A program made the position numbers and the translations under genes. Below are positions 1 to 7,708 of a stretch of 7,708 nt of DNA, one piece after another. The notes beneath the pieces are model-generated. The model searched no databases, was not told where the DNA came from, and worked only from the letters and a program-made list of their open reading frames with translations. Where the stretch lies: the IMG/VR virus record IMGVR_UViG_2663763413_000006; one strand, given 5' to 3'. Positions within the stretch are counted from its first letter, which is position 1; each line of letters begins with the position of its first letter. This stretch comes from a virus (lineage: Duplodnaviria; Heunggongvirae; Uroviricota; Caudoviricetes).

Positions 1-296
1 GGGCCGGTAAAACCGGACTGATACAGCCACTTATCCGCAGCGTGCTGGACTCCGGGGGCTTTGCCGTGGTGTTCGACATGGGGGATGGCTACAAGTCCCT
101 GTGTGAGAACATGGGGGGCGTATATCTGGACGGTGAAACCCTGCGTTTTAACCCGTTTGCGAACATCACCGATATCGACCAGTCAGCGGAGCGTGTCCGT
201 GACCAGTTGTCAGTGATGGCCAGCCCCAACGGTAACCTGGATGAAGTGCATGAAGGTCTGCTGCTGCAGGCGGTCAGGGCCTCCTGGCTGGCCTGA
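1..296 (+). pseudogene. traC: Internal fragment of F-type conjugative transfer ATPase TraC (VirB4-family T4SS ATPase); 5' end outside window, stop TGA at 294-296
   Basis: Frame starting at nt 3 is open from the window edge and reads AGKTGLIQPLIRSVLDSGGFAVVFDMGDGYKSLCENMGGVYLDGETLRFNPFANITDIDQSAERVRDQLSVMASPNGNLDEVHEGLLLQAVRASWLA. The leading AGKT is the tail of a Walker A P-loop. The string matches my recollection of F-plasmid TraC, which continues past ...RASWLA; here a TGA follows immediately. Recognition is from memory, not a search. Confidence 0.7.
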
Positions 297-842: not shown

Positions 843-3183
843 ATGATGAAAGTATTAATTGTTGAAAGCGAGTTTCTCCATCAAGACACCTGGGTCGGTA
901 ACGCCGTTGAGCGTCTGGCAGATGCTTTAAGCCAGCAAAATGTTACCGTGATTAAATCCACCTCCTTTGATGATGGTTTTGCCATTCTCTCTTCAAACGA
1001 AGCCATTGACTGCCTGATGTTCAGCTATCAAATGGAACATCCGGACGAACATCAAAACGTCAGACAATTGATCGGTAAGCTTCATGAGCGCCAACAAAAC
1101 GTGCCGGTCTTCCTGTTGGGCGATCGGGAAAAAGCCCTCGCCGCAATGGACCGGGATCTGCTGGAGCTTGTCGATGAATTCGCCTGGATTCTGGAAGATA
1201 CCGCCGACTTTATCGCCGGACGCGCCGTTGCCGCGATGACCCGCTACCGCCAGCAGCTATTGCCGCCACTGTTCAGCGCGCTGATGAAATATAGCGACAT
1301 CCATGAATATTCCTGGGCAGCGCCAGGCCACCAGGGCGGCGTTGGTTTTACCAAAACACCCGCCGGACGTTTCTACCATGACTATTATGGTGAAAATCTG
1401 TTCCGCACCGACATGGGTATCGAACGCACTTCCCTCGGTTCTTTGCTTGACCATACTGGCGCATTTGGCGAAAGCGAAAGATATGCCGCACGCGTATTTG
1501 GTGCCGATCGCTCCTGGTCGGTAGTCGTCGGTACTTCCGGCTCTAACCGCACCATCATGCAGGCTTGCATGACCGATAACGAGATAGTAGGTCGGTGACC
1601 GTAACTGCCAGAAATCCATCGAAAAAGCCATAAAGCCAACAAACAAGAAACCAGGCTAACAGGCGCGAAACCGGTCTACATGGTGCCAAGCCGCAACCGC
1701 TACGGCATTATCGGGCCAATCTATCCGCAGGAAATGCAACCTGAAACCTTGCAGAAGAAAATCAATGAAAGCCCGCTGACCAAAGACAAAGCCGGGCAAA
1801 AACCGTCTTACTGCGTGGTGACCAACTGCACCTATGACGGCGTGTGTTATAACGCTAAAGAAGCACAGGATCTGCTGGAAAAAACCTCCGATCGTCTGCA
1901 CTCTGACGAAGCACTGGTACGGCTATGAACGTTCCAACCCGATCCATGCCGATCACGAGCCATGCGACAGCTCTATGCCGATCAACCCGATCTATGCCGA
2001 TCACTATGCCATGCGCGGCGAACCTGGCGATCACAACGGTCCTACCGTTTTCGCCACCCACTCCACCCACAAACTGCTGAATGCGCTGTCACAGGCCTCT
2101 TATATTCATGTACGTGAAGGTCGTGGGGCGATTAACTTCTCCCGCTTCAACCAGGCCTACATGATGCATGCCACCACCTCCCCGCTGTATGCCATCTGCG
2201 CATCCAACGACGTGGCGGTGTCGATGATGGACGGCAACAGCGGCCTGTCACTGACCCAGGAAGTGATCGACGAAGCGGTTGATTTCCGTCAGGCGATGGC
2301 GCGGCTATATAAAGAGTTCACCGCTGACGGTAGCTGGTTCTTCAAACCGTGGAACAAAGAAGTCGTCACCGACCCACAAACCGGCAAAACCTATGACTTT
2401 GCTGACGCACCAACCAAACTGCTGACCACCGTTCAGGACTGCTGGGTCATGCATCCGGGCGAAAGCTGGCACGGCTTCAAAGATATTCCGGATAACTGGA
2501 GTATGCTCGACCCGATTAAAGTCAGCATCCTTGCTCCGGGAATGGGTGAAGATGGTGAACTGGAAGAAACCGGTGTTCCGGCGGCGCTGGTCACAGCCTG
2601 GCTTGGTCGCCACGGCATTGTGCCTACCCGTACCACTGACTTCCAGATTATGTTCCTGTTCTCTATGGGCGTGACCCGTGGGAAATGGGGGACTCTGGTT
2701 AACACCCTTTGCTCCTTCAAACGCCACTATGATGCCAACACACCGCTGGCGCAGGTGATGCCGGAACTTGTTGAACAATATCCTGACACTTACGCGAACA
2801 TGGGGATTCACGATCTGGGTGACACCATGTTTGCCTGGCTGAAAGAAAACAACCCTGGCGCACGGTTGAATGAAGCCTATTCCGGCCTACCGGTGGCGGA
2901 AATCACCCCGCGTGAAGCGTACAACGCGATTGTCGACAACAATGTCGAACTGGTATCCATTGAAAATCTGCCAGGACGTATCGCGGCAAACTCAGTTATC
3001 CCGTATCCGCCAGGAATCCCGATGCTGCTGTCTGGTGAAAACTTCGGCGATAAAAACAGTCCGCAAGTAAGTTATTTACGCTCGCTGCAATCCTGGGACC
3101 ATCATTTCCCTGGATTTGAACACGAAACAGAAGGGACAGAAATTATTGACGGTATTTACCACGTTATGTGTGTGAAAGCGTAA
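843..3183 (+). pseudogene. adiA: Biodegradative (acid-inducible) arginine decarboxylase AdiA, reading frame broken into three ORFs (843-1598, 1680-1928, 1834-3183)
   Basis: N-terminus MMKVLIVESEFLHQDTWVGNAVERLADALSQQNVTVIKSTSF... and C-terminus ...GTEIIDGIYHVMCVKA match E. coli AdiA as I recall it. In-frame stops TGA 1596-1598 and TAA 1602-1604 lie in a scrambled segment 1581-1658, after which frame 0 resumes (TGAKPVYMVPSRNRYG). A +1 shift near 1911-1916 moves the native reading to frame 1 (WYGY...). A 48-bp in-frame insertion at about 1936-1983 is a diverged partial copy of the following sequence. Confidence 0.85.
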
Positions 3184-3518: not shown

Positions 3519-4443
3519 ATGAGGATTTGCAGCGACCAACCTTGTATTGTTTTATTGACTGAAAAAGATGTCTGGATAAGGGTGAATGGGAAAGAACCTA
3601 TTAGCCTTAAAGCTAACCACATGGCGTTATTAAATTGTGAAAATAATATTATCGACGTCTCCTCTCTTAATAACACTTTGGTTGCTCATATTAGTCACGA
3701 CATCATCAAAGATTACCTCCGGTTTCTGAATAAAGATCTCTCGCAAATACCAGTATGGCAACGTAGCGCTACGCCCATCCTCACCCTTCCATGCCTGACG
3801 CCAGACGTCTTTCGCGTTGCCGCGCAGCATAGCATGATGCCCGCTGAAACTGAGTCAGAAAAGGAACGAACACGTGCATTATTATTCACTGTGCTATCCC
3901 GTTTTCTCGACAGTAAAAAATTCCTTTCACTAATGATGTATATGTTTCACTAATGATGTATATGTTACGTAATTGTGTAAGTGACAGCGTTTATCAAATT
4001 GTGTAAGTGACAGCGTTTATCAAATTATTGAAAGCGAAATCCACAAAGACTGGAATCTTAGTATGCCAGCAAGAGACTGGAATCTTAGTATGGTAGCCAG
4101 TTTGGAATCTTAGTATGGTAGCCAGTTGATGATGTCTCAGCCCAAGTCTGTTAAAGAAAAAGCTGAAAAGCGAAAACACCAGTTATAGCCAAATAATCAC
4201 CACCTGCCGCATGCGTTATGCCGTAAATGAATTAATGATGGACGGTAAAAATATTTAATAATGGACGGTAAAAATATCTCTCAGGTACGCTAAAAATATC
4301 TCACAGGTATCACAGTCCTGCGGCTACAACAGTACGTCGTACTTTATTTCTGTCCTTAAAGACTTATACGGTATGACGCCGCTGCATAAGGTATGACGCC
4401 GCTGCATTATGTTAGTCAGCACAGAGAACGCACTGTCGCCTGA
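3519..4443 (+). pseudogene. adiY: AraC-family activator AdiY, disrupted by multiple short tandem duplications and in-frame stops
   Basis: ORF 3519-3953 reads MRICSDQPCIVLLTEKDVWIRVNGKEPISLKANHMALLNCENNIIDVSSLNN..., matching recalled E. coli AdiY, then terminates early at TAA 3951-3953 inside a duplicated segment. Downstream sequence still encodes AdiY-like peptides in shifting frames (e.g. [56 protein letters not shown]) up to the native-looking stop TGA 4441-4443. Good RBS aggag 8 nt upstream of the ATG. Confidence 0.8.
3925..4409 (+). repeat. Cluster of short direct tandem duplications inside adiY
   Basis: Read directly: tttcactaatgatgtatatg x2 (3925-3944, 3945-3964); attgtgtaagtgacagcgtttatcaa x2 (3972-3997, 3998-4023); gactggaatcttagtatg(gtagccagtt) in three overlapping copies (4048-4065, 4075-4102, 4103-4127); atggacggtaaaaatat x2 (4238-4254, 4261-4277) with a third partial copy near 4291-4310; ggtatgacgccgctgcat x2 (4370-4387, 4390-4407). 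Confidence 0.85.
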
Positions 4444-4579
4444 TTTTTAACCTTAACGAAGAGCTATATTAATAACGGCATCAGCGATAACCCGGCCGAT
4501 AATAATTCAACTATCGAATGCAGGCGTATGATATGACGTAATTTATTGTCACGAAGCTCGCCTTCGCAGGAGTTTAATT

Positions 4580-5163
<584 letters not shown>

Positions 5164-5164
5164 T

Positions 5165-5242
<78 letters not shown>

Positions 5243-5251
5243 TTGCAGATA

Positions 5252-5641
5252 TTACTCTTTTTTCTCCGTATCTGCATCGGGTTCATCAGCAAATAGCTTG
5301 CCCTGCATCCGATCCAGTTCTTCTTTTCTTACCCGCTTAACCACGCTGTAGACCCACTGAAGCGAAACACCAAATTTGCGGGCCAGTTCGTGGTGGTTGC
5401 GTCCGTTAAACTCCCTGAAGATTTCCCGGTCGCGCTGACTGACCTTCCATACCATGCCCATCGGGAAATAAACGTTTTGCCCGCCCCAGACCTGCATCAT
5501 TCGGTTCGCGACGGCCTGACCAATCTGGTCGGCAACTTCGGGCTCAATATCAATAATCTCGCGAACGGTCTCAGAGGTATGCTGTGCCAGTTCCACCAGG
5601 AGTTCCGGCCCCTTACTTCGAAACTGATTCAGGTCGCTCAT
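5252..5641 (-). CDS. mor: Mor-like middle-operon transcriptional activator (Mu gp17 family)
   Basis: 129 aa. C-terminal region ...GGQNVYFPMGMVWKVSQRDREIFREFNGRNHHELARKFGVSLQWVYSVVKRVRK resembles the conserved Mor/C-family HTH region of phage Mu Mor as I recall it (...FNGRN..EL...YG......VY...RR.R). Start overlaps the upstream gemA-like gene by 29 nt. Confidence 0.7.
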   Translation of the reverse strand: MSDLNQFRSKGPELLVELAQHTSETVREIIDIEPEVADQIGQAVANRMMQVWGGQNVYFPMGMVWKVSQRDREIFREFNGRNHHELARKFGVSLQWVYSVVKRVRKEELDRMQGKLFADEPDADTEKKE

Positions 5642-6062
5642 GTTTGACTCCCGCAGCTCTGCGCTGCCACTTCTTCAGTTTCTCAATAACACTGCTTGCC
5701 TGTTCAGTACTGAGCCAGCGCAGGGCGCTGATGCCCGTTTCCCGCTTGATCCACCTCGCTAATGCATTTTCTGAACGGTCACGAACAATGCCGGCAGCAG
5801 CCATTTCAAGCCATAGCGCACGAATTTTCCTGGACTGCGGATGGTTATCAAGCGGTAAACCGGAGCTGGCTTTTCTGGCTGGTTTAACGCGAAAGCCTTT
5901 CTTTTTCATGGATTCCAGCACGCAGTTTAGTTGTGTGGTATCCATTCCTTTGGTTGAGGCTTTACCGGTCAGCCCCTGTAACATCTGGCGGTAGGTGTCT
6001 TCATCCATACCCAGTTCATTACGGGCAATATGGATAAGCTGTATCAGGCGTTTTTTCTGCAT
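5613..6062 (-). CDS. gemA: GemA-like protein (Mu gp16 / DUF1018 family)
   Basis: 149 aa, MQKKRLIQLIHIARNELGMDEDTYRQMLQGLTGKASTKGMDTTQLNCVLESMKKKGFR...KIRALWLEMAAAG... matches the GemA family pattern recalled from Mu-like prophage annotations. Lies immediately upstream of mor as in phage Mu. RBS ggag upstream of ATG at 6062. Confidence 0.65.
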   Translation of the reverse strand: MQKKRLIQLIHIARNELGMDEDTYRQMLQGLTGKASTKGMDTTQLNCVLESMKKKGFRVKPARKASSGLPLDNHPQSRKIRALWLEMAAAGIVRDRSENALARWIKRETGISALRWLSTEQASSVIEKLKKWQRRAAGVKHERPESVSK

Positions 6063-6063
6063 A

Positions 6064-6270
6064 TCATCTCCTTTTTTTCAGTCTGTCGGCAACAATGTCG
6101 GTTGCAGCTGGCAGGGTGACTGGCCAGAACAACATGACGGCGGTCATGTACAGGATGTAATGCGCGGTGTCGTAGTGCCTGCCATAGCCCAGGGAACGAT
6201 GAAGTCTTGCGCTGCATGATCCTGCGTACATATACCAGAAAAGAAAACAGACAATGGTTTCAGTAGTCAT
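6064..6270 (-). CDS. Small hydrophobic (putative membrane) protein, 68 aa, unknown function
   Basis: Internal start of the 6064-6426 ORF: ATG at 6270-6268 preceded by ggagg about 10 nt upstream. MTTETIVCFLFWYMYAGSCSARLHRSLGYGRHYDTAHYILYMTAVMLFWPVTLPAATDIVADRLKKRR has two hydrophobic segments. Start overlaps the stop of the upstream gene; the stop is 1 nt from the gemA start. Confidence 0.4.
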   Translation of the reverse strand: MTTETIVCFLFWYMYAGSCSARLHRSLGYGRHYDTAHYILYMTAVMLFWPVTLPAATDIVADRLKKRR

Positions 6271-6490
6271 TCTGAATACCTCCCCATTCGATATGAATAT
6301 TACGGGCAGCAATGACAGGGTCGTTATTCCACCATGCACCTGACATGTATTTTTCAACCTGTTCGCGTCCGGCAATAACACCAATTGTGATCCCCGGCCT
6401 GACGTTCTTAAAAAAGGCGCGGGCAAAAAGGTATCTGGCAGATATTCGGCAGGCTTTTAATTTCCGGCTTTTACCTGATAGCGTAATCAT
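6260..6490 (-). CDS. Hypothetical phage protein, 76 aa
   Basis: ORF with ATG overlapping the TGA of the upstream DUF2786-like gene (ATGA at 6487-6490, minus strand), consistent with translational coupling in a phage operon. No family recognised. Confidence 0.4.
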   Translation of the reverse strand: MITLSGKSRKLKACRISARYLFARAFFKNVRPGITIGVIAGREQVEKYMSGAWWNNDPVIAARNIHIEWGGIQNDY

Positions 6491-7170
6491 CTGGCCTCCA
6501 GTTTCTGTTGTTCCTGCCCACTGACCGGGCGGTGCAGTCTGACGTTCTGCCCTTCACGAAACCCCGCATAGCGCGAGGCGTCGCCATTGCGGCTTCTTCC
6601 CGGTTTACGCGCCCTGGTGGTTTGCGTCTGCGGGTATTTATGTTCCAGCCACTGCTGCATCAGTTCACGCTCATCATCGGTCAGGGCAAAGGACTGTATT
6701 TCACTGATAACGGCCAGCACCCAGCCTTCGGCAAACTGGTCTCCACGGCTGGTGCGGGTGGCGGTTTTTATTCTTTTGTTCTGTGCACTGATATACTGCT
6801 GACGCGCCTTTTTCAGCTGACGGGCCAGCACTTCCCAGGTGTATGCAGCCAGTGCCGCACGTTCCCGGTTGCCGTAGAACCCCACAGACGGATGCGTGCC
6901 GGGGTGAATGATGGAGTTAACACCAAATACCTCGCGGATGATGTTCATCAGGCCCAGCATGTAGCGCGGTGGACGGAGACTGCCTGTCGGCCAGTAGTGA
7001 CTGATGGTTTCATCAATATCACTCATAGCAATGTCGGAATGTGTGATGCCGTGAACATCCATCAGTTTACGGGCTCGGCGCAGTGCCAGAGCGGCCTCGT
7101 GCGGGTTGCCGGATGCGGCCAGCGCCAGCAACTTTTTCAGTTTCTCAATGTGTTTATTCTGGTCTGTCAT
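6487..7170 (-). CDS. DUF2786-like phage protein (227 aa from ATG 7170; the six-frame ORF extends to 7206)
   Basis: N-terminus MTDQNKHIEKLKKLLALAASGNPHEAALALRRARKLMDVHG resembles the DUF2786 signature (EKI.KLLALA.S.N..EA..A...A..LM) common in prophage early regions. The ATG at 7170 overlaps the TGA of the upstream gene (ATGA) and has ggag about 11 nt upstream, so I prefer it over the 7206 start. Confidence 0.55.
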   Translation of the reverse strand: MTDQNKHIEKLKKLLALAASGNPHEAALALRRARKLMDVHGITHSDIAMSDIDETISHYWPTGSLRPPRYMLGLMNIIREVFGVNSIIHPGTHPSVGFYGNRERAALAAYTWEVLARQLKKARQQYISAQNKRIKTATRTSRGDQFAEGWVLAVISEIQSFALTDDERELMQQWLEHKYPQTQTTRARKPGRSRNGDASRYAGFREGQNVRLHRPVSGQEQQKLEAR

Positions 7171-7382
7171 TGTTCTGTATCTCCGGTATTTTTCTGCCGT
7201 TTCCATGCCCGGACAGCGTCGGACAGCTCTTTCAGGCTGTATGCTGCTTTAAGCTTTTCCCATAACCACTGTGTTGTTATGTGCATCAGCAGGGCAGCCA
7301 GGGCTGCCCCCGCACTGAGGCATGTCGCCAGGCCAGTAAGAATCAGTGTCCATGCGGTGATTTCCCTGAGTATGTCAGCCAT
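7167..7382 (-). CDS. Small putative membrane protein, 71 aa, unknown function
   Basis: MADILREITAWTLILTGLATCLSAGAALAALLMHITTQWLWEKLKAAYSLKELSDAVRAWKRQKNTGDTEQ has one clear hydrophobic helix. RBS gggagg 8 nt upstream of the ATG; stop overlaps the start of the downstream gene. Confidence 0.4.
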   Translation of the reverse strand: MADILREITAWTLILTGLATCLSAGAALAALLMHITTQWLWEKLKAAYSLKELSDAVRAWKRQKNTGDTEQ

Positions 7383-7396
7383 TGAATGCCTCCCGG

Positions 7397-7693
7397 TTAC
7401 TCGTTCGTGTAAATCACGCCCAGTCGTGCAGCCAGACGTTCCAGTTTTTTCTGTTTGTGGAAGTCAATCAGCCGGTCCATCCCCTGAAGGCGCAGTTGCT
7501 CTGTCATGATTTCCACGTCTGCCAGCTCTGCCGCGAGGTCACTTTCGCTGCCCTGTCCGTTCAGGTTGCGGGCGGCACTGGCCGCCAGTTCAGCGGCCTC
7601 TTCTGCCAGTTTCAGGGCCTGTGCGTCCGGCCCGAAACGCTGCAGGGCCAGACGGTAGAGGGCGGTGCGGGTGAGTTCGGTGTTTCGTGTCAT
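7397..7693 (-). CDS. Small MazG-like all-alpha nucleotide pyrophosphohydrolase-type protein, 98 aa (motif-based call)
   Basis: Contains E31-x3-E35 (LAEEAAELAAS), then 20 residues later E56-x2-D59 (AAELADVEIM), matching the MazG/HisE-type metal-binding signature E-x3-E ... E-x2-D. RBS gaggg upstream of ATG at 7693. Inferred from motif only. Confidence 0.5.
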   Translation of the reverse strand: MTRNTELTRTALYRLALQRFGPDAQALKLAEEAAELAASAARNLNGQGSESDLAAELADVEIMTEQLRLQGMDRLIDFHKQKKLERLAARLGVIYTNE

Positions 7694-7708
7694 GCCGCGC
7701 CCTCAGTG

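What the first reader, a model, noticed from the sequence alone, without database searches (positions are those of the whole stretch)
6064..7382. Uncharacterised four-gene cassette (membrane protein, DUF2786-like, 76-aa protein, membrane protein) in the host-interaction part of the operon
These four overlapping, translationally coupled genes occupy the position where Mu-like phages carry non-essential host-modulating functions (kil, gam and others). Two are small membrane proteins and DUF2786 has no established function. Such cassettes are typical hiding places for superinfection-exclusion, anti-defence or toxin-like activities.
Basis: inference. Interest (0 to 1): 0.4.

Follow-up and report, generated by a model that had tools for sequence, protein, structure and literature searches.

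The report
Unknown-function early genes of Mu-like prophage
The four genes are real, tightly packed early genes of a Mu-like (BcepMu-type) prophage of E. coli, but they are not one cassette: one is a widespread, conserved, probably nucleic-acid-binding protein of mobile elements, and the other three are small, lineage-restricted add-on genes of unknown function.

Summary
Four minus-strand genes at 6064-7382 are packed with ATGA or 11-nt overlaps, inside the early operon of a BcepMu-type transposable prophage. The prophage's left end is at 5089, inside adiC. All four are under purifying selection. The stretch is 100% identical to Escherichia phage PhiKM and to prophages in about 576 complete E. 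coli genomes.

- **DUF2786+DUF7168 protein (227 aa).** It is a core gene. It occupies the same slot upstream of gemA-mor in at least five transposable-phage lineages, but not in Mu. It also occurs in an ICE parA-dnaB-parB operon, in conjugative plasmids and in lytic phages. It is always basic (pI 9-11). Its model (pLDDT 85) has a KH-like beta-alpha-beta-beta-alpha core but no GXXG loop.
- **g71.** An E. coli-only single-pass membrane protein that comes and goes by precise indel.
- **g76.** A small basic helical protein, also optional.
- **g68.** A two-helix membrane protein that always sits just before gemA in enterobacterial relatives, and is swapped as gene-sized alleles.

No internal promoter was found, so expression is probably lytic-cycle only. 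No homology to any characterised protein was found, and function remains unknown. This is an ordinary, already catalogued region of modest interest.

The parts
7167..7382 (-). g71: a 71-aa single-pass membrane protein. The N-terminal hydrophobic helix is variable. The C-terminal helix (HITTQWLWEKLKAAYSLKELSDAVRAWKRQK...) is conserved. It is an accessory gene restricted to E. coli.
   Evidence: ORF. Kyte-Doolittle peak 1.98 at residues 14-32. phrog_3958, unknown function. All homologues come from E. coli or from unnamed contigs. Alignment. Precise absence in L027-L033 and others. dN/dS 0.37-0.41. Cys21 is not conserved and the -1 residue is Thr, so it is not a lipoprotein.
6487..7170 (-). DUF2786+DUF7168 protein, 227 aa, pI 10.1. 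It has an N-terminal helical hairpin followed by a basic alpha/beta domain with a KH-like core. It is a core early gene.
7039..7149 (-). DUF2786 domain (residues 8-44 of the 227-aa protein): a two-helix hairpin with invariant N22 and E25 in the loop motif N-P-H-E-A.
   Evidence: Pfam PF10979, E 4.8e-11. Helices 2-18 and 23-40 in the model. Invariant columns.
6604..7035 (-). DUF7168 domain (residues 46-189). It has beta(52-57)-alpha(69-82)-beta(85-89)-beta(95-101)-alpha(102-129), followed by helices that carry the conserved basic motif NKRIKxxTKTxRxDxFxEGW.
6260..6490 (-). g76: a 76-aa basic (pI 10.2) soluble protein, predicted to be three helices. It is a facultative gene of enterobacterial BcepMu-like prophages.
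   Evidence: ORF. phrog_3681. Homologues only in Enterobacterales. Alignment A2 with a strongly conserved core. Low-confidence model. No fold, Pfam or PDB match. Absent or replaced in many relatives. Interrupted by an IS3-family element in L021. dN/dS 0.11-0.16.
6064..6270 (-). g68: a 68-aa aromatic-rich inner-membrane protein with two hydrophobic segments. This is the window's allele of a family that always lies immediately upstream of gemA in enterobacterial relatives.
   Evidence: phrog_6436 covers residues 1-68. Family alignment with conserved FWY..GWC.A.LH..G...RY...W...WP..LP. It occupies this slot in nearly all loci. Identity profile 100% -> 43% -> 100% across the gene against L008. Only 8 clusters among 1.84 billion representatives. 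dN/dS 0.12 against the 83% allele.
7397..7693 (-). Context: a 98-aa MazG-like NTP pyrophosphohydrolase, the next gene upstream in the operon.
   Evidence: phrog_2245, E 5.5e-34. Weak Pfam PRA-PH match. Conserved next to DUF2786 in this lineage.
5613..6062 (-). Context: gemA (gp16 family).
   Evidence: Pfam GemA, E 8.3e-41.
5252..5641 (-). Context: mor, the middle-operon activator and last gene of the early operon.
   Evidence: Pfam Mor, E 1.3e-43.
5089..5251 (.). Context: the prophage left end (TGATTAGACTTGAG...), inserted in adiC.
   Evidence: Twelve different host flanks abut the same TG end in related loci. adiC homology stops at about 5070.

Best explanation
**What is shown.**
Window 6064-7382 is the distal part of the repressor-controlled early (Pe-type) operon of a BcepMu-type transposable prophage. 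Gene order on the minus strand is mazG-like, g71, DUF2786/DUF7168, g76, g68, gemA, mor, then the prophage end at 5089. The four genes are real and translationally coupled, but they are a mosaic and not a functional cassette.

- DUF2786+DUF7168 is a conserved core gene. It holds the same slot in several transposable-phage lineages and also occurs in ICE replication/partition operons, conjugative plasmids, a P1-like phage-plasmid and lytic phages.
- g71 and g76 are optional, lineage-restricted inserts.
- g68 is a narrow family fixed in the slot before gemA, and it is exchanged as whole-gene alleles.

**What is inferred.**
- The DUF2786+DUF7168 protein most likely binds nucleic acid. Its invariably basic, KH-like alpha/beta domain would provide the binding surface, and the N-terminal helical hairpin would act as a protein-contact or oligomerisation module.
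- It would act early after infection or derepression on the element's own DNA or transcripts. That is, it would be an accessory factor for replication or establishment rather than a host-killing or exclusion factor.
- The two small membrane proteins and g76 are made only during lytic development, because they have no promoter of their own.
- They most likely modulate the host envelope or host factors during the lytic cycle. Possibilities are exclusion of secondary infection, interference with division or membrane function, or counter-defence.
- Each small protein probably acts on its own.
For: **Anatomy and coupling.**

**Identity.** 100% to phage PhiKM and to prophages in 576 E. coli genomes that hold at least 80% of the query.

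**Transposable prophage.** Twelve different flanks at the same TG end.

**Coding.** dN/dS 0.11-0.41.

**Not co-inherited.** The table of 80 IMG/VR loci, slot analysis and identity profiles.

**Core status and breadth of DUF2786+DUF7168.**
- Homologue in 178 phage records. In the contexts read, it sits between the transposition genes and gemA-mor: B3 ORF5, JBD24 gp17 and Pasteurella ORF8.
- Aeromonas, Shewanella and Citrobacter Mu-like prophages.
- SGI4, in the order parA-dnaB-parB-DUF2786.
- 283 plasmid records, 227 of them conjugative, including one next to mobI, xseAB and a ParB-domain gene.
- A P1-like plasmid.
- Lytic phages by fold.

**Nucleic-acid-binding inference.**
- Model pLDDT 85.5.
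- pI 9.05-11.0 and net charge +6 to +18 in all 38 homologues tested.
- Conserved basic motif.
- The neighbouring early genes Gam and GemA are reported to handle DNA ends and topology (PMC12407980).

**Lytic-only expression.**
- No promoter-like or terminator-like site on the minus strand within 6064-7382.
- The pE operon of B3-like Fc02 is silent in the lysogen and on by 10 min after induction (PMC9936078).

**Core-plus-accessory pattern.** Known for transposable phages (PMC4378225).
Against: - No experimental datum exists for any of the four families. DUF2786 appears only as an annotation label in five papers, and DUF7168 in none.
- Guilt by association is weak, because contexts differ between elements.
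- The promoter scan is a crude sigma-70 consensus search and cannot exclude weak or non-canonical internal promoters.
- Mu itself lacks the protein, so it is not required for transposition as such.
- The g76 model is unreliable (pLDDT 63).
Confidence: 0.5

Rival explanations
1. One reading: the four genes form one cassette that works together as a superinfection-exclusion, anti-defence or toxin-like module.
For: Tight translational coupling. Two membrane proteins. No housekeeping homology. Two adjacent early-operon genes of B3-like phage Ps56 are reported to act together in exclusion (PMC9936078).
Against: - The genes are not co-inherited. g71 is absent, g76 absent or replaced and g68 swapped in phages that are otherwise 95-100% identical.
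- DUF2786+DUF7168 occurs in ICEs, plasmids and lytic phages without the three small genes.
- Translational coupling is the norm along the whole operon, for example gemA and mor overlap by 29 nt.
- No promoter of their own was found.
Confidence: 0.08
2. DUF2786+DUF7168 is a broad-spectrum counter-defence or host-takeover protein. It would bind and neutralise a conserved host protein, with its N-terminal hairpin or conserved C-terminal tail as the docking element, as many early or leading-region genes of phages and plasmids do.
For: - It is an early gene in phages and sits in accessory or leading-like regions of conjugative plasmids, next to H-NS, nuclease, zeta toxin and a methylase fragment, and near mobI.
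- It is present in unrelated element types, including strictly lytic phages.
- It has a conserved C-terminal peptide, L..PVSGQEQxKLG.
- The neighbouring Gam and GemA interact with host DNA-repair and defence pathways (PMC12407980).
Against: - Strong, family-wide purifying selection and conserved basic charge fit a nucleic-acid ligand better than an arms-race interface.
- In an ICE it sits inside the parA-dnaB-parB maintenance operon.
- No similarity to any characterised inhibitor was found.
Confidence: 0.22
3. The small membrane proteins g68 and/or g71 are Kil-like or holin-like toxic peptides. They would block cell division or depolarise the membrane to condition the cell for lytic growth or to time lysis.
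For: They are small hydrophobic proteins in a lytic-only operon. Mu-type phages carry kil in the early region, and the Pfam Kil_protein family is found in Aeromonas and Shewanella relatives. The g68 family has conserved polar residues (E, H, R) at the membrane edge.
Against: No match to Pfam Kil_protein or to any holin family. The lysis genes of this phage type lie elsewhere, as an SLT transglycosylase, a lipoprotein and a membrane protein on the other arm. g71 is dispensable in close relatives.
Confidence: 0.15
4. Some of the small ORFs are annotation artefacts and not genes.
For: They are short, have no Pfam family, and are labelled 'hypothetical protein' in all records.
Against: - dN/dS is well below 1 at deeper divergence for all of them.
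- Each has a full-length PHROG match.
- All have Shine-Dalgarno sites and coupled starts.
- Length and frame are conserved in Salmonella, Citrobacter, Proteus and Serratia for g76, and across many loci for g68.
- The competing ORFs (the 333-aa antisense ORF 6508-7509 and the 120-aa extension) have no support.
Confidence: 0.03

Closest known systems
Semi-essential early region of phage Mu (genes between B and mor: kil, gp6-gp9, gam, gp11-gp15, gemA)
   Same: It has the same operon logic and position. Densely packed small genes lie downstream of the transposition genes and upstream of gemA-mor, transcribed from the repressor-controlled early promoter, and most have no known function.
   Different: None of Mu gp6-gp9 or gp11-gp14 carries DUF2786 or DUF7168. 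Profile comparison of A1 with Mu gp11 and gp12 is negative, at probability below 1%. kil and gam are not in this stretch. The operon lies on the opposite arm orientation, in the BcepMu/B3 layout.
Core plus regions-of-genomic-plasticity architecture of Pseudomonas transposable phages (D3112/B3 groups; PMC4378225, PMC9936078)
   Same: Conserved core genes are interleaved with 34-100-codon accessory ORFs that appear as indels or replacements at fixed sites in the left arm. B3 ORF5 and JBD24 gp17 are homologues of the DUF2786+DUF7168 protein in the equivalent slot.
   Different: The three small genes here have no homologues in the Pseudomonas phages. None of the accessory genes with known function there (anti-CRISPRs, Ps56 gp9/gp10) is related.
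Pfam DUF2786 (PF10979) / DUF7168 (PF23771), PHROG 421
   Same: Full two-domain match above the curated thresholds. Same architecture in all 64 database relatives.
   Different: The families have no assigned function, so membership names the protein but does not explain it.
Type I KH (K-homology) single-stranded nucleic-acid-binding domains
   Different: No conserved GXXG loop, and only one predicted helix between beta1 and beta2. No Pfam KH hit. The similarity is fold-level and is shared with KH-like domains that do not bind nucleic acids, such as secretin N-domains.
Small membrane exclusion proteins of temperate phages (for example Ps56/Fc02 gp10 of B3-like phages)
   Same: A small insoluble or membrane protein encoded in the early operon of a transposable phage. 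Exclusion is shown when it is expressed from a plasmid (PMC9936078).
   Different: No sequence relationship. Those genes lie next to ner, at the promoter-proximal end. No function has been tested for g68 or g71.

Membership tests
Pfam DUF2786 (PF10979) | Whole-protein score above the gathering threshold (23.9 bits) | tested here: met
   42.9 bits, E 4.8e-11, profile positions 3-40 of 40
Pfam DUF7168 (PF23771) | Whole-protein score above the gathering threshold (25.5 bits) | tested here: met
   90.4 bits, E 1.1e-25, profile positions 2-139 of 140
Mu-type transposable prophage early operon | GemA and Mor genes at the distal end of the operon | tested here: met
   Pfam GemA 8.3e-41 and Mor 1.3e-43. 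Transposase, B-like ATPase and Gam lie upstream in the identical phage PhiKM.
Mu-type transposable prophage early operon | The element ends with TG and is inserted at many different host sites | tested here: met
   The same end, TGATTAGACTTGAG, abuts 12 different flanks. Here it interrupts adiC at 5089.
KH domain (type I) | beta-alpha-alpha-beta-beta-alpha topology | tested here: inconclusive
KH domain (type I) | Conserved GXXG loop between the two helices | tested here: not met
   No conserved GXXG in alignment A1 between residues 57 and 69. P68 is nearly invariant but the glycines are not conserved.
KH domain (type I) | Sequence-profile match to the Pfam KH families | tested here: not met
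   No KH family at E <= 0.1
KH domain (type I) | Binding of single-stranded RNA or DNA | not testable with these tools
   Needs EMSA or CLIP. Only the conserved basic charge was shown.
   None of the four proteins matches. Gam is a separate gene upstream, outside the window.
Known anti-phage defence proteins (PADLOC-DB) | Match to any PADLOC model | tested here: not met
   No significant hit. The only hit was JetC at E 0.026 for g76, which is chance level.
Prophage superinfection-exclusion genes | Expression in the lysogen from its own promoter | tested here: inconclusive
   No sigma-70-like site on the minus strand within 6064-7382. The homologous operon of Fc02 is silent in lysogens (PMC9936078). 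The scan is crude and this phage was not measured.
Prophage superinfection-exclusion genes | Blocks infection by other phages when expressed | not testable with these tools
   Needs plating assays
Bacterial lipoproteins (considered for g71) | Lipobox [LVI][ASTVI][GAS]C with an invariant Cys | tested here: not met
   The sequence is L-A-T-C with Thr at -1, and the Cys is replaced by Phe in P0109.
Ner/Nlp HTH_35 family (considered for g76 from its sequence pattern) | Profile similarity to Mu Ner or Pfam HTH_35 | tested here: not met
   hhalign probability 0.16% against Mu Ner. No Pfam hit for any of the 23 family members even at E <= 10.

The most novel reading that the evidence does not exclude
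The DUF2786+DUF7168 family is an unrecognised, near-universal 'establishment' factor of mobile DNA. It would be a basic protein with a degenerate KH-like fold that binds the single-stranded or structured DNA (or the early RNA) of an incoming or replicating element. Through its N-terminal hairpin it would couple that nucleic acid to replication, partition or repair machinery. This would explain its presence in transposable phages, ICE parA-dnaB-parB operons, conjugative plasmids and lytic phages alike. A second, smaller possibility is that the g68 slot before gemA is a diversifying locus for lytic-phase exclusion, with allele-specific targets.
Probability: 0.25. Interest if true: 0.6.

Novelty: already known. 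Interest (0 to 1): 0.3.

Why it matters
The stretch itself is ordinary. It is base-for-base identical to a deposited phage and to prophages in roughly a tenth of complete E. coli genomes (576 of 5,426), and every gene already sits in a catalogued family of unknown function.

Its value is as a tractable handle. DUF2786+DUF7168 is one of the more widespread uncharacterised protein architectures of phages, ICEs and plasmids. Here it sits in an E. coli prophage that also exists as a deposited phage genome (PhiKM).

This work adds three things that turn a 'hypothetical protein' into an experiment:
- a testable fold hypothesis (a KH-like, basic domain);
- a fixed syntenic slot next to Gam and GemA;
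- natural variants in which the flanking small genes are absent (g71, g76), swapped (g68) or interrupted by an IS element (g76).

If the small membrane proteins turn out to exclude other phages or to counter defence during lytic growth, they would matter for phage therapy against ST131-type strains that carry this prophage.

Tried and rejected
1. Sequence search of the DUF2786 protein, and of profile A1, against all PDB chains found only chance hits: a de novo helical design at E 0.12 and a reaction-centre cytochrome at E 0.7.
2. NCBIfam and PADLOC scans of all four proteins found nothing.
3. The idea that Mu gp11 or gp12 is a diverged homologue was rejected by hhalign, with probability below 1%, and by Pfam.
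5. The idea that the small membrane protein after DUF2786 is a universal partner was rejected. The downstream genes in Shewanella, Aeromonas, B3, JBD24 and Acinetobacter are soluble and unrelated. Only SGI4 has an unrelated polytopic membrane protein there.
6. g71 as a lipoprotein was rejected.
7. Plus-strand ORFs, including the 333-aa antisense ORF 6508-7509, have no meaningful family match. The only hit was a sub-threshold DUF6129 match (E 0.012) for the 70-aa ORF 6312-6524. The selection signal lies in the minus-strand frames.
8. Rfam and the promoter/terminator scans of 5000-7708 found nothing within the stretch.
9. Foldseek against AFDB50 could not be run because the library was unavailable. 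BFVD gave only uncharacterised relatives.
10. Literature searches for DUF2786, DUF7168, PF10979, PF23771 and IPR024498 found no functional study. The B3 genome paper could not be read.
Full report
**1. Where the stretch lies**

The window is Escherichia chromosome (melR fragment, adiA, adiY, 5' part of adiC) joined to the end of a prophage.
- From 5089 rightwards the sequence is 100% identical to Escherichia phage PhiKM, which is classified as Bcepmuvirus.
- It is also 100% identical, over the 5096-7708 query, to the best-matching prophages in complete E. coli genomes. 576 of 5,426 genomes hold at least 80% of that query, and 453 records match at 99% or better.
- In twelve related loci the same terminal sequence, TGATTAGACTTGAG, abuts twelve unrelated host flanks. 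adiC homology stops at about 5070.
- This is therefore a Mu-type transposable prophage inserted in adiC.

The early operon runs on the minus strand towards this end. In PhiKM the order upstream of the window is Ner-like HTH genes, DUF3102, transposase, B-like ATPase, a small gene, Gam and two small genes. Inside the window it continues as a MazG-like gene (7693-7397), g71, DUF2786, g76, g68, gemA (6062-5613) and mor (5641-5252).

**2. The observation**

All four ORFs are present.

The junctions, read from the sequence, are:
- ATGA between g71 and DUF2786;
- ATGA between DUF2786 and g76;
- an 11-nt overlap between g76 and g68;
- one base between the g68 stop and the gemA start.

The g76, g68 and gemA starts have a GGAG-type Shine-Dalgarno 5-8 nt upstream; for DUF2786 it is about 10 nt upstream.

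Two mechanical ORFs are over-extended:
- The DUF2786 protein starts at 7170 (227 aa), not 7206.
- g68 starts at 6270 (68 aa), not 6426. The PHROG and Pfam profiles and the family alignments begin at those codons.

All four are under purifying selection against diverged orthologues. dN/dS is about 0.11 for DUF2786, 0.11-0.16 for g76, 0.12 for g68 and about 0.4 for g71. The long antisense ORF (6508-7509, +) and the other plus-strand ORFs have no meaningful family match. There is no promoter-like or terminator-like site on the minus strand within the stretch, and no Rfam match.

**3. The four genes are not a unit**

I compared 80 IMG/VR loci that encode a relative of the DUF2786 protein.
- The backbone MazG-like, DUF2786, small membrane protein, GemA, Mor is conserved.
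- g71 is missing by a precise deletion in phages that are otherwise 91-100% identical in the flanks, for example L027.
- g76 is absent from most of the 65%-identity group (the DUF2786-to-gemA gap is about 220 nt instead of about 430 nt). It is replaced by another small ORF in L025, L031 and L074. It is interrupted by an IS3-family element in L021.
- g68 is always there but as very different alleles. Against L008 the nucleotide identity is 100% from the window's right end (7708) to 6309. It falls to 43% within g68 and returns to 100% in gemA.

This is the core-plus-accessory mosaic described for Pseudomonas transposable phages (PMC4378225).

**4. The DUF2786+DUF7168 protein**

Family membership. 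Pfam gives two domains above threshold. PHROG 421 is 'unknown function'. NCBIfam, PADLOC and PDB sequence searches give nothing.

Distribution. All 64 relatives in the 5.8-billion-protein search carry one or both of these domains and no other Pfam domain; nearly all full-length ones carry both. Homologues occupy the equivalent slot, between the transposition genes and gemA-mor, in:
- Pseudomonas B3 (ORF5), JBD24 (gp17) and a Pasteurella Mu-like phage;
- Aeromonas and Shewanella Mu-like prophages;
- a Citrobacter Mu-like prophage.

Mu itself has no detectable homologue.

The protein is also found outside transposable phages:
- Salmonella island SGI4, in the operon parA, two small genes, dnaB-type helicase, parB, DUF2786.
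- 283 plasmid records, 227 of them predicted conjugative. These include Acinetobacter plasmids, amid H-NS, nuclease and zeta-toxin genes and about 2.5 kb from ParAB. They also include a Pseudomonas plasmid, next to mobI, xseAB and a ParB-domain gene.
- A P1-like Vibrio phage-plasmid.
- A non-Mu prophage-like island in Komagataeibacter.
- By fold, many lytic phages of unrelated hosts.

Structure. An AlphaFold2 model from a 30-sequence alignment is confident (pLDDT 85.5, pTM 0.76). It shows:
- an N-terminal two-helix hairpin, which is DUF2786, with invariant N22 and E25 in its loop;
- beta(52-57)-alpha(69-82)-beta(85-89)-beta(95-101)-alpha(102-129);
- three further helices that carry the conserved NKRIKxxTKTxRxDxFxEGW motif;
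- a conserved C-terminal peptide.

Charge. All 38 homologues examined, from every element type, are basic, with pI 9.05-11.0 and net charge +6 to +18.

Literature. No paper in the library describes a function.

**5. The three small proteins**

g71
- It has a variable hydrophobic helix, with indels of Ala/Leu triplets, and a highly conserved C-terminal helix.
- Its relatives are all from E. coli or from unnamed contigs.
- It is not a lipoprotein.

g76
- It is basic (pI 10.2), with a strongly conserved core, and is found only in Enterobacterales.
- Its model is poor. Neither fold, profile nor PDB searches give a lead.

g68
- It belongs to a compact family of aromatic-rich proteins with two hydrophobic segments and a conserved pattern, FWY..GWC.A.LH..G...RY...W...WP..LP.
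- Only eight clusters among 1.84 billion representative proteins match it, and one of those is spurious.
- The genes that follow DUF2786 in more distant elements are unrelated and mostly soluble. g68 is therefore a lineage-specific feature and not a partner of DUF2786.

**6. Most likely mechanism**

Shown:
- operon position and coupling;
- coding status;
- mosaic inheritance;
- domain composition and fold prediction;
- basic charge;
- contexts.

Inferred, for the large protein:
- DUF2786+DUF7168 binds nucleic acid through its basic KH-like domain.
- It acts early on the element's own DNA or transcripts, as an accessory factor for replication or establishment.
- Its company supports this. In phages it sits between Gam and GemA, which are reported to bind DNA ends and to be linked to gyrase and DNA metabolism (PMC12407980). 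In an ICE it sits with parA, dnaB and parB.

Inferred, for the small proteins:
- The pE operon of the B3-like phage Fc02 is silent in the lysogen and on within 10 minutes of induction (PMC9936078), and no internal promoter is seen here.
- The three small proteins are therefore probably lytic-phase products that each act independently on the envelope or on host factors.
- Exclusion by other early-operon genes of B3-like phages is a precedent. Those genes are unrelated and lie at the other end of the operon.

I give the overall account a confidence of 0.5. Within it, the anatomy stands at about 0.9, and the nucleic-acid-binding role at about 0.4.

**7. Rivals**

| Rival | Confidence | Main point |
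|---|---|---|
| Single four-gene functional cassette | about 0.08 | Contradicted by the inheritance pattern |
| DUF2786+DUF7168 as a protein-targeting counter-defence factor | about 0.22 | Remains open |
| Kil-like or holin-like toxicity of the membrane peptides | about 0.15 | Possible, but without homology support |
| Annotation artefact | about 0.03 | Excluded by selection and conservation |

**8. Verdict**

The 'cassette' framing and the emphasis on hidden exclusion or toxin functions are not supported for the largest gene. It is a conserved core gene found in many kinds of mobile element. For the three small genes the idea is untested.

The sequence and all four families are already catalogued, so the novelty class is 'already known', with unknown function. 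Interest is modest (0.3). The main value is a tractable E. coli system, plus a fold-based hypothesis, for a very widespread uncharacterised protein family.

Noticed in passing
window 5063-5089; L006 (IMGVR_UViG_2695420576_000002): The prophage interrupts adiC at 5089. L006 has the phage at the same adiC position with a clean flank (..atcgtcgggattgccgtatt|tgattag). The window instead has a small scrambled patch (..accatcggcagtgggagggccgtatt|). L006 in turn carries 'ttccgtgggaggg' inside the phage end, where all others have 'ataaatgacaggg'. The shared 'gtgggaggg' in two different places is unexplained.
   Followed up: partly
window 843-3183: The adiA (arginine decarboxylase) reading frame is broken. 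One ORF ends at 1598 and the next long ORF starts at 1834, so adiA looks like a pseudogene or carries sequence errors. With adiC also disrupted, the arginine-dependent acid-resistance system appears to be inactivated.
   Followed up: no
window 42-296 and 324-647: By my reading of the translations (not tested with tools), a TraC-like conjugation-protein fragment lies directly next to a C-terminal fragment of an AraC-family regulator that looks like MelR. This suggests a rearrangement or insertion scar at the left edge of the window.
   Followed up: no
window 4300-5070: The adiY-adiC region is only about 96% identical to almost all complete E. coli genomes; only 2 records reach 99% or more. The host is therefore a divergent Escherichia lineage, although the prophage is 100% identical to ST131-type prophages.
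   Followed up: no
window 7397-7693 (-): A 98-aa MazG-like NTP pyrophosphohydrolase (phrog_2245, E 5.5e-34) lies directly upstream of the four genes. It is conserved next to the DUF2786 gene throughout the enterobacterial BcepMu-like lineage. It is a candidate nucleotide-signal or dNTP-pool modulator.
   Followed up: partly
L021 5793-7006: An IS3-family element (OrfA plus an rve-type OrfB, on the opposite strand) is inserted inside the g76 orthologue of one related prophage. This is a natural knock-out of g76, and is probably polar on g68-gemA-mor.
   Followed up: partly
window 6508-7509 (+): A 333-aa antisense ORF spans the whole DUF2786 gene and is conserved in L021. It has no family match, and the selection signal is in the minus-strand frame, so it is most likely a by-product of the codon composition of the opposite strand.
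   Followed up: yes
L087 (Salmonella SGI4) 7645-8070: In the ICE operon the gene overlapping the end of the DUF2786 gene encodes a 141-aa polytopic membrane protein. This loosely echoes the DUF2786-then-membrane-protein order in the window, but the sequences are unrelated.
   Followed up: partly
P0145 (representative protein, 119 aa): One database representative is a g68-family protein fused in frame to the N-terminus of GemA. This probably comes from loss of the stop codon at the 1-nt g68/gemA junction, or from a sequencing error.
   Followed up: no
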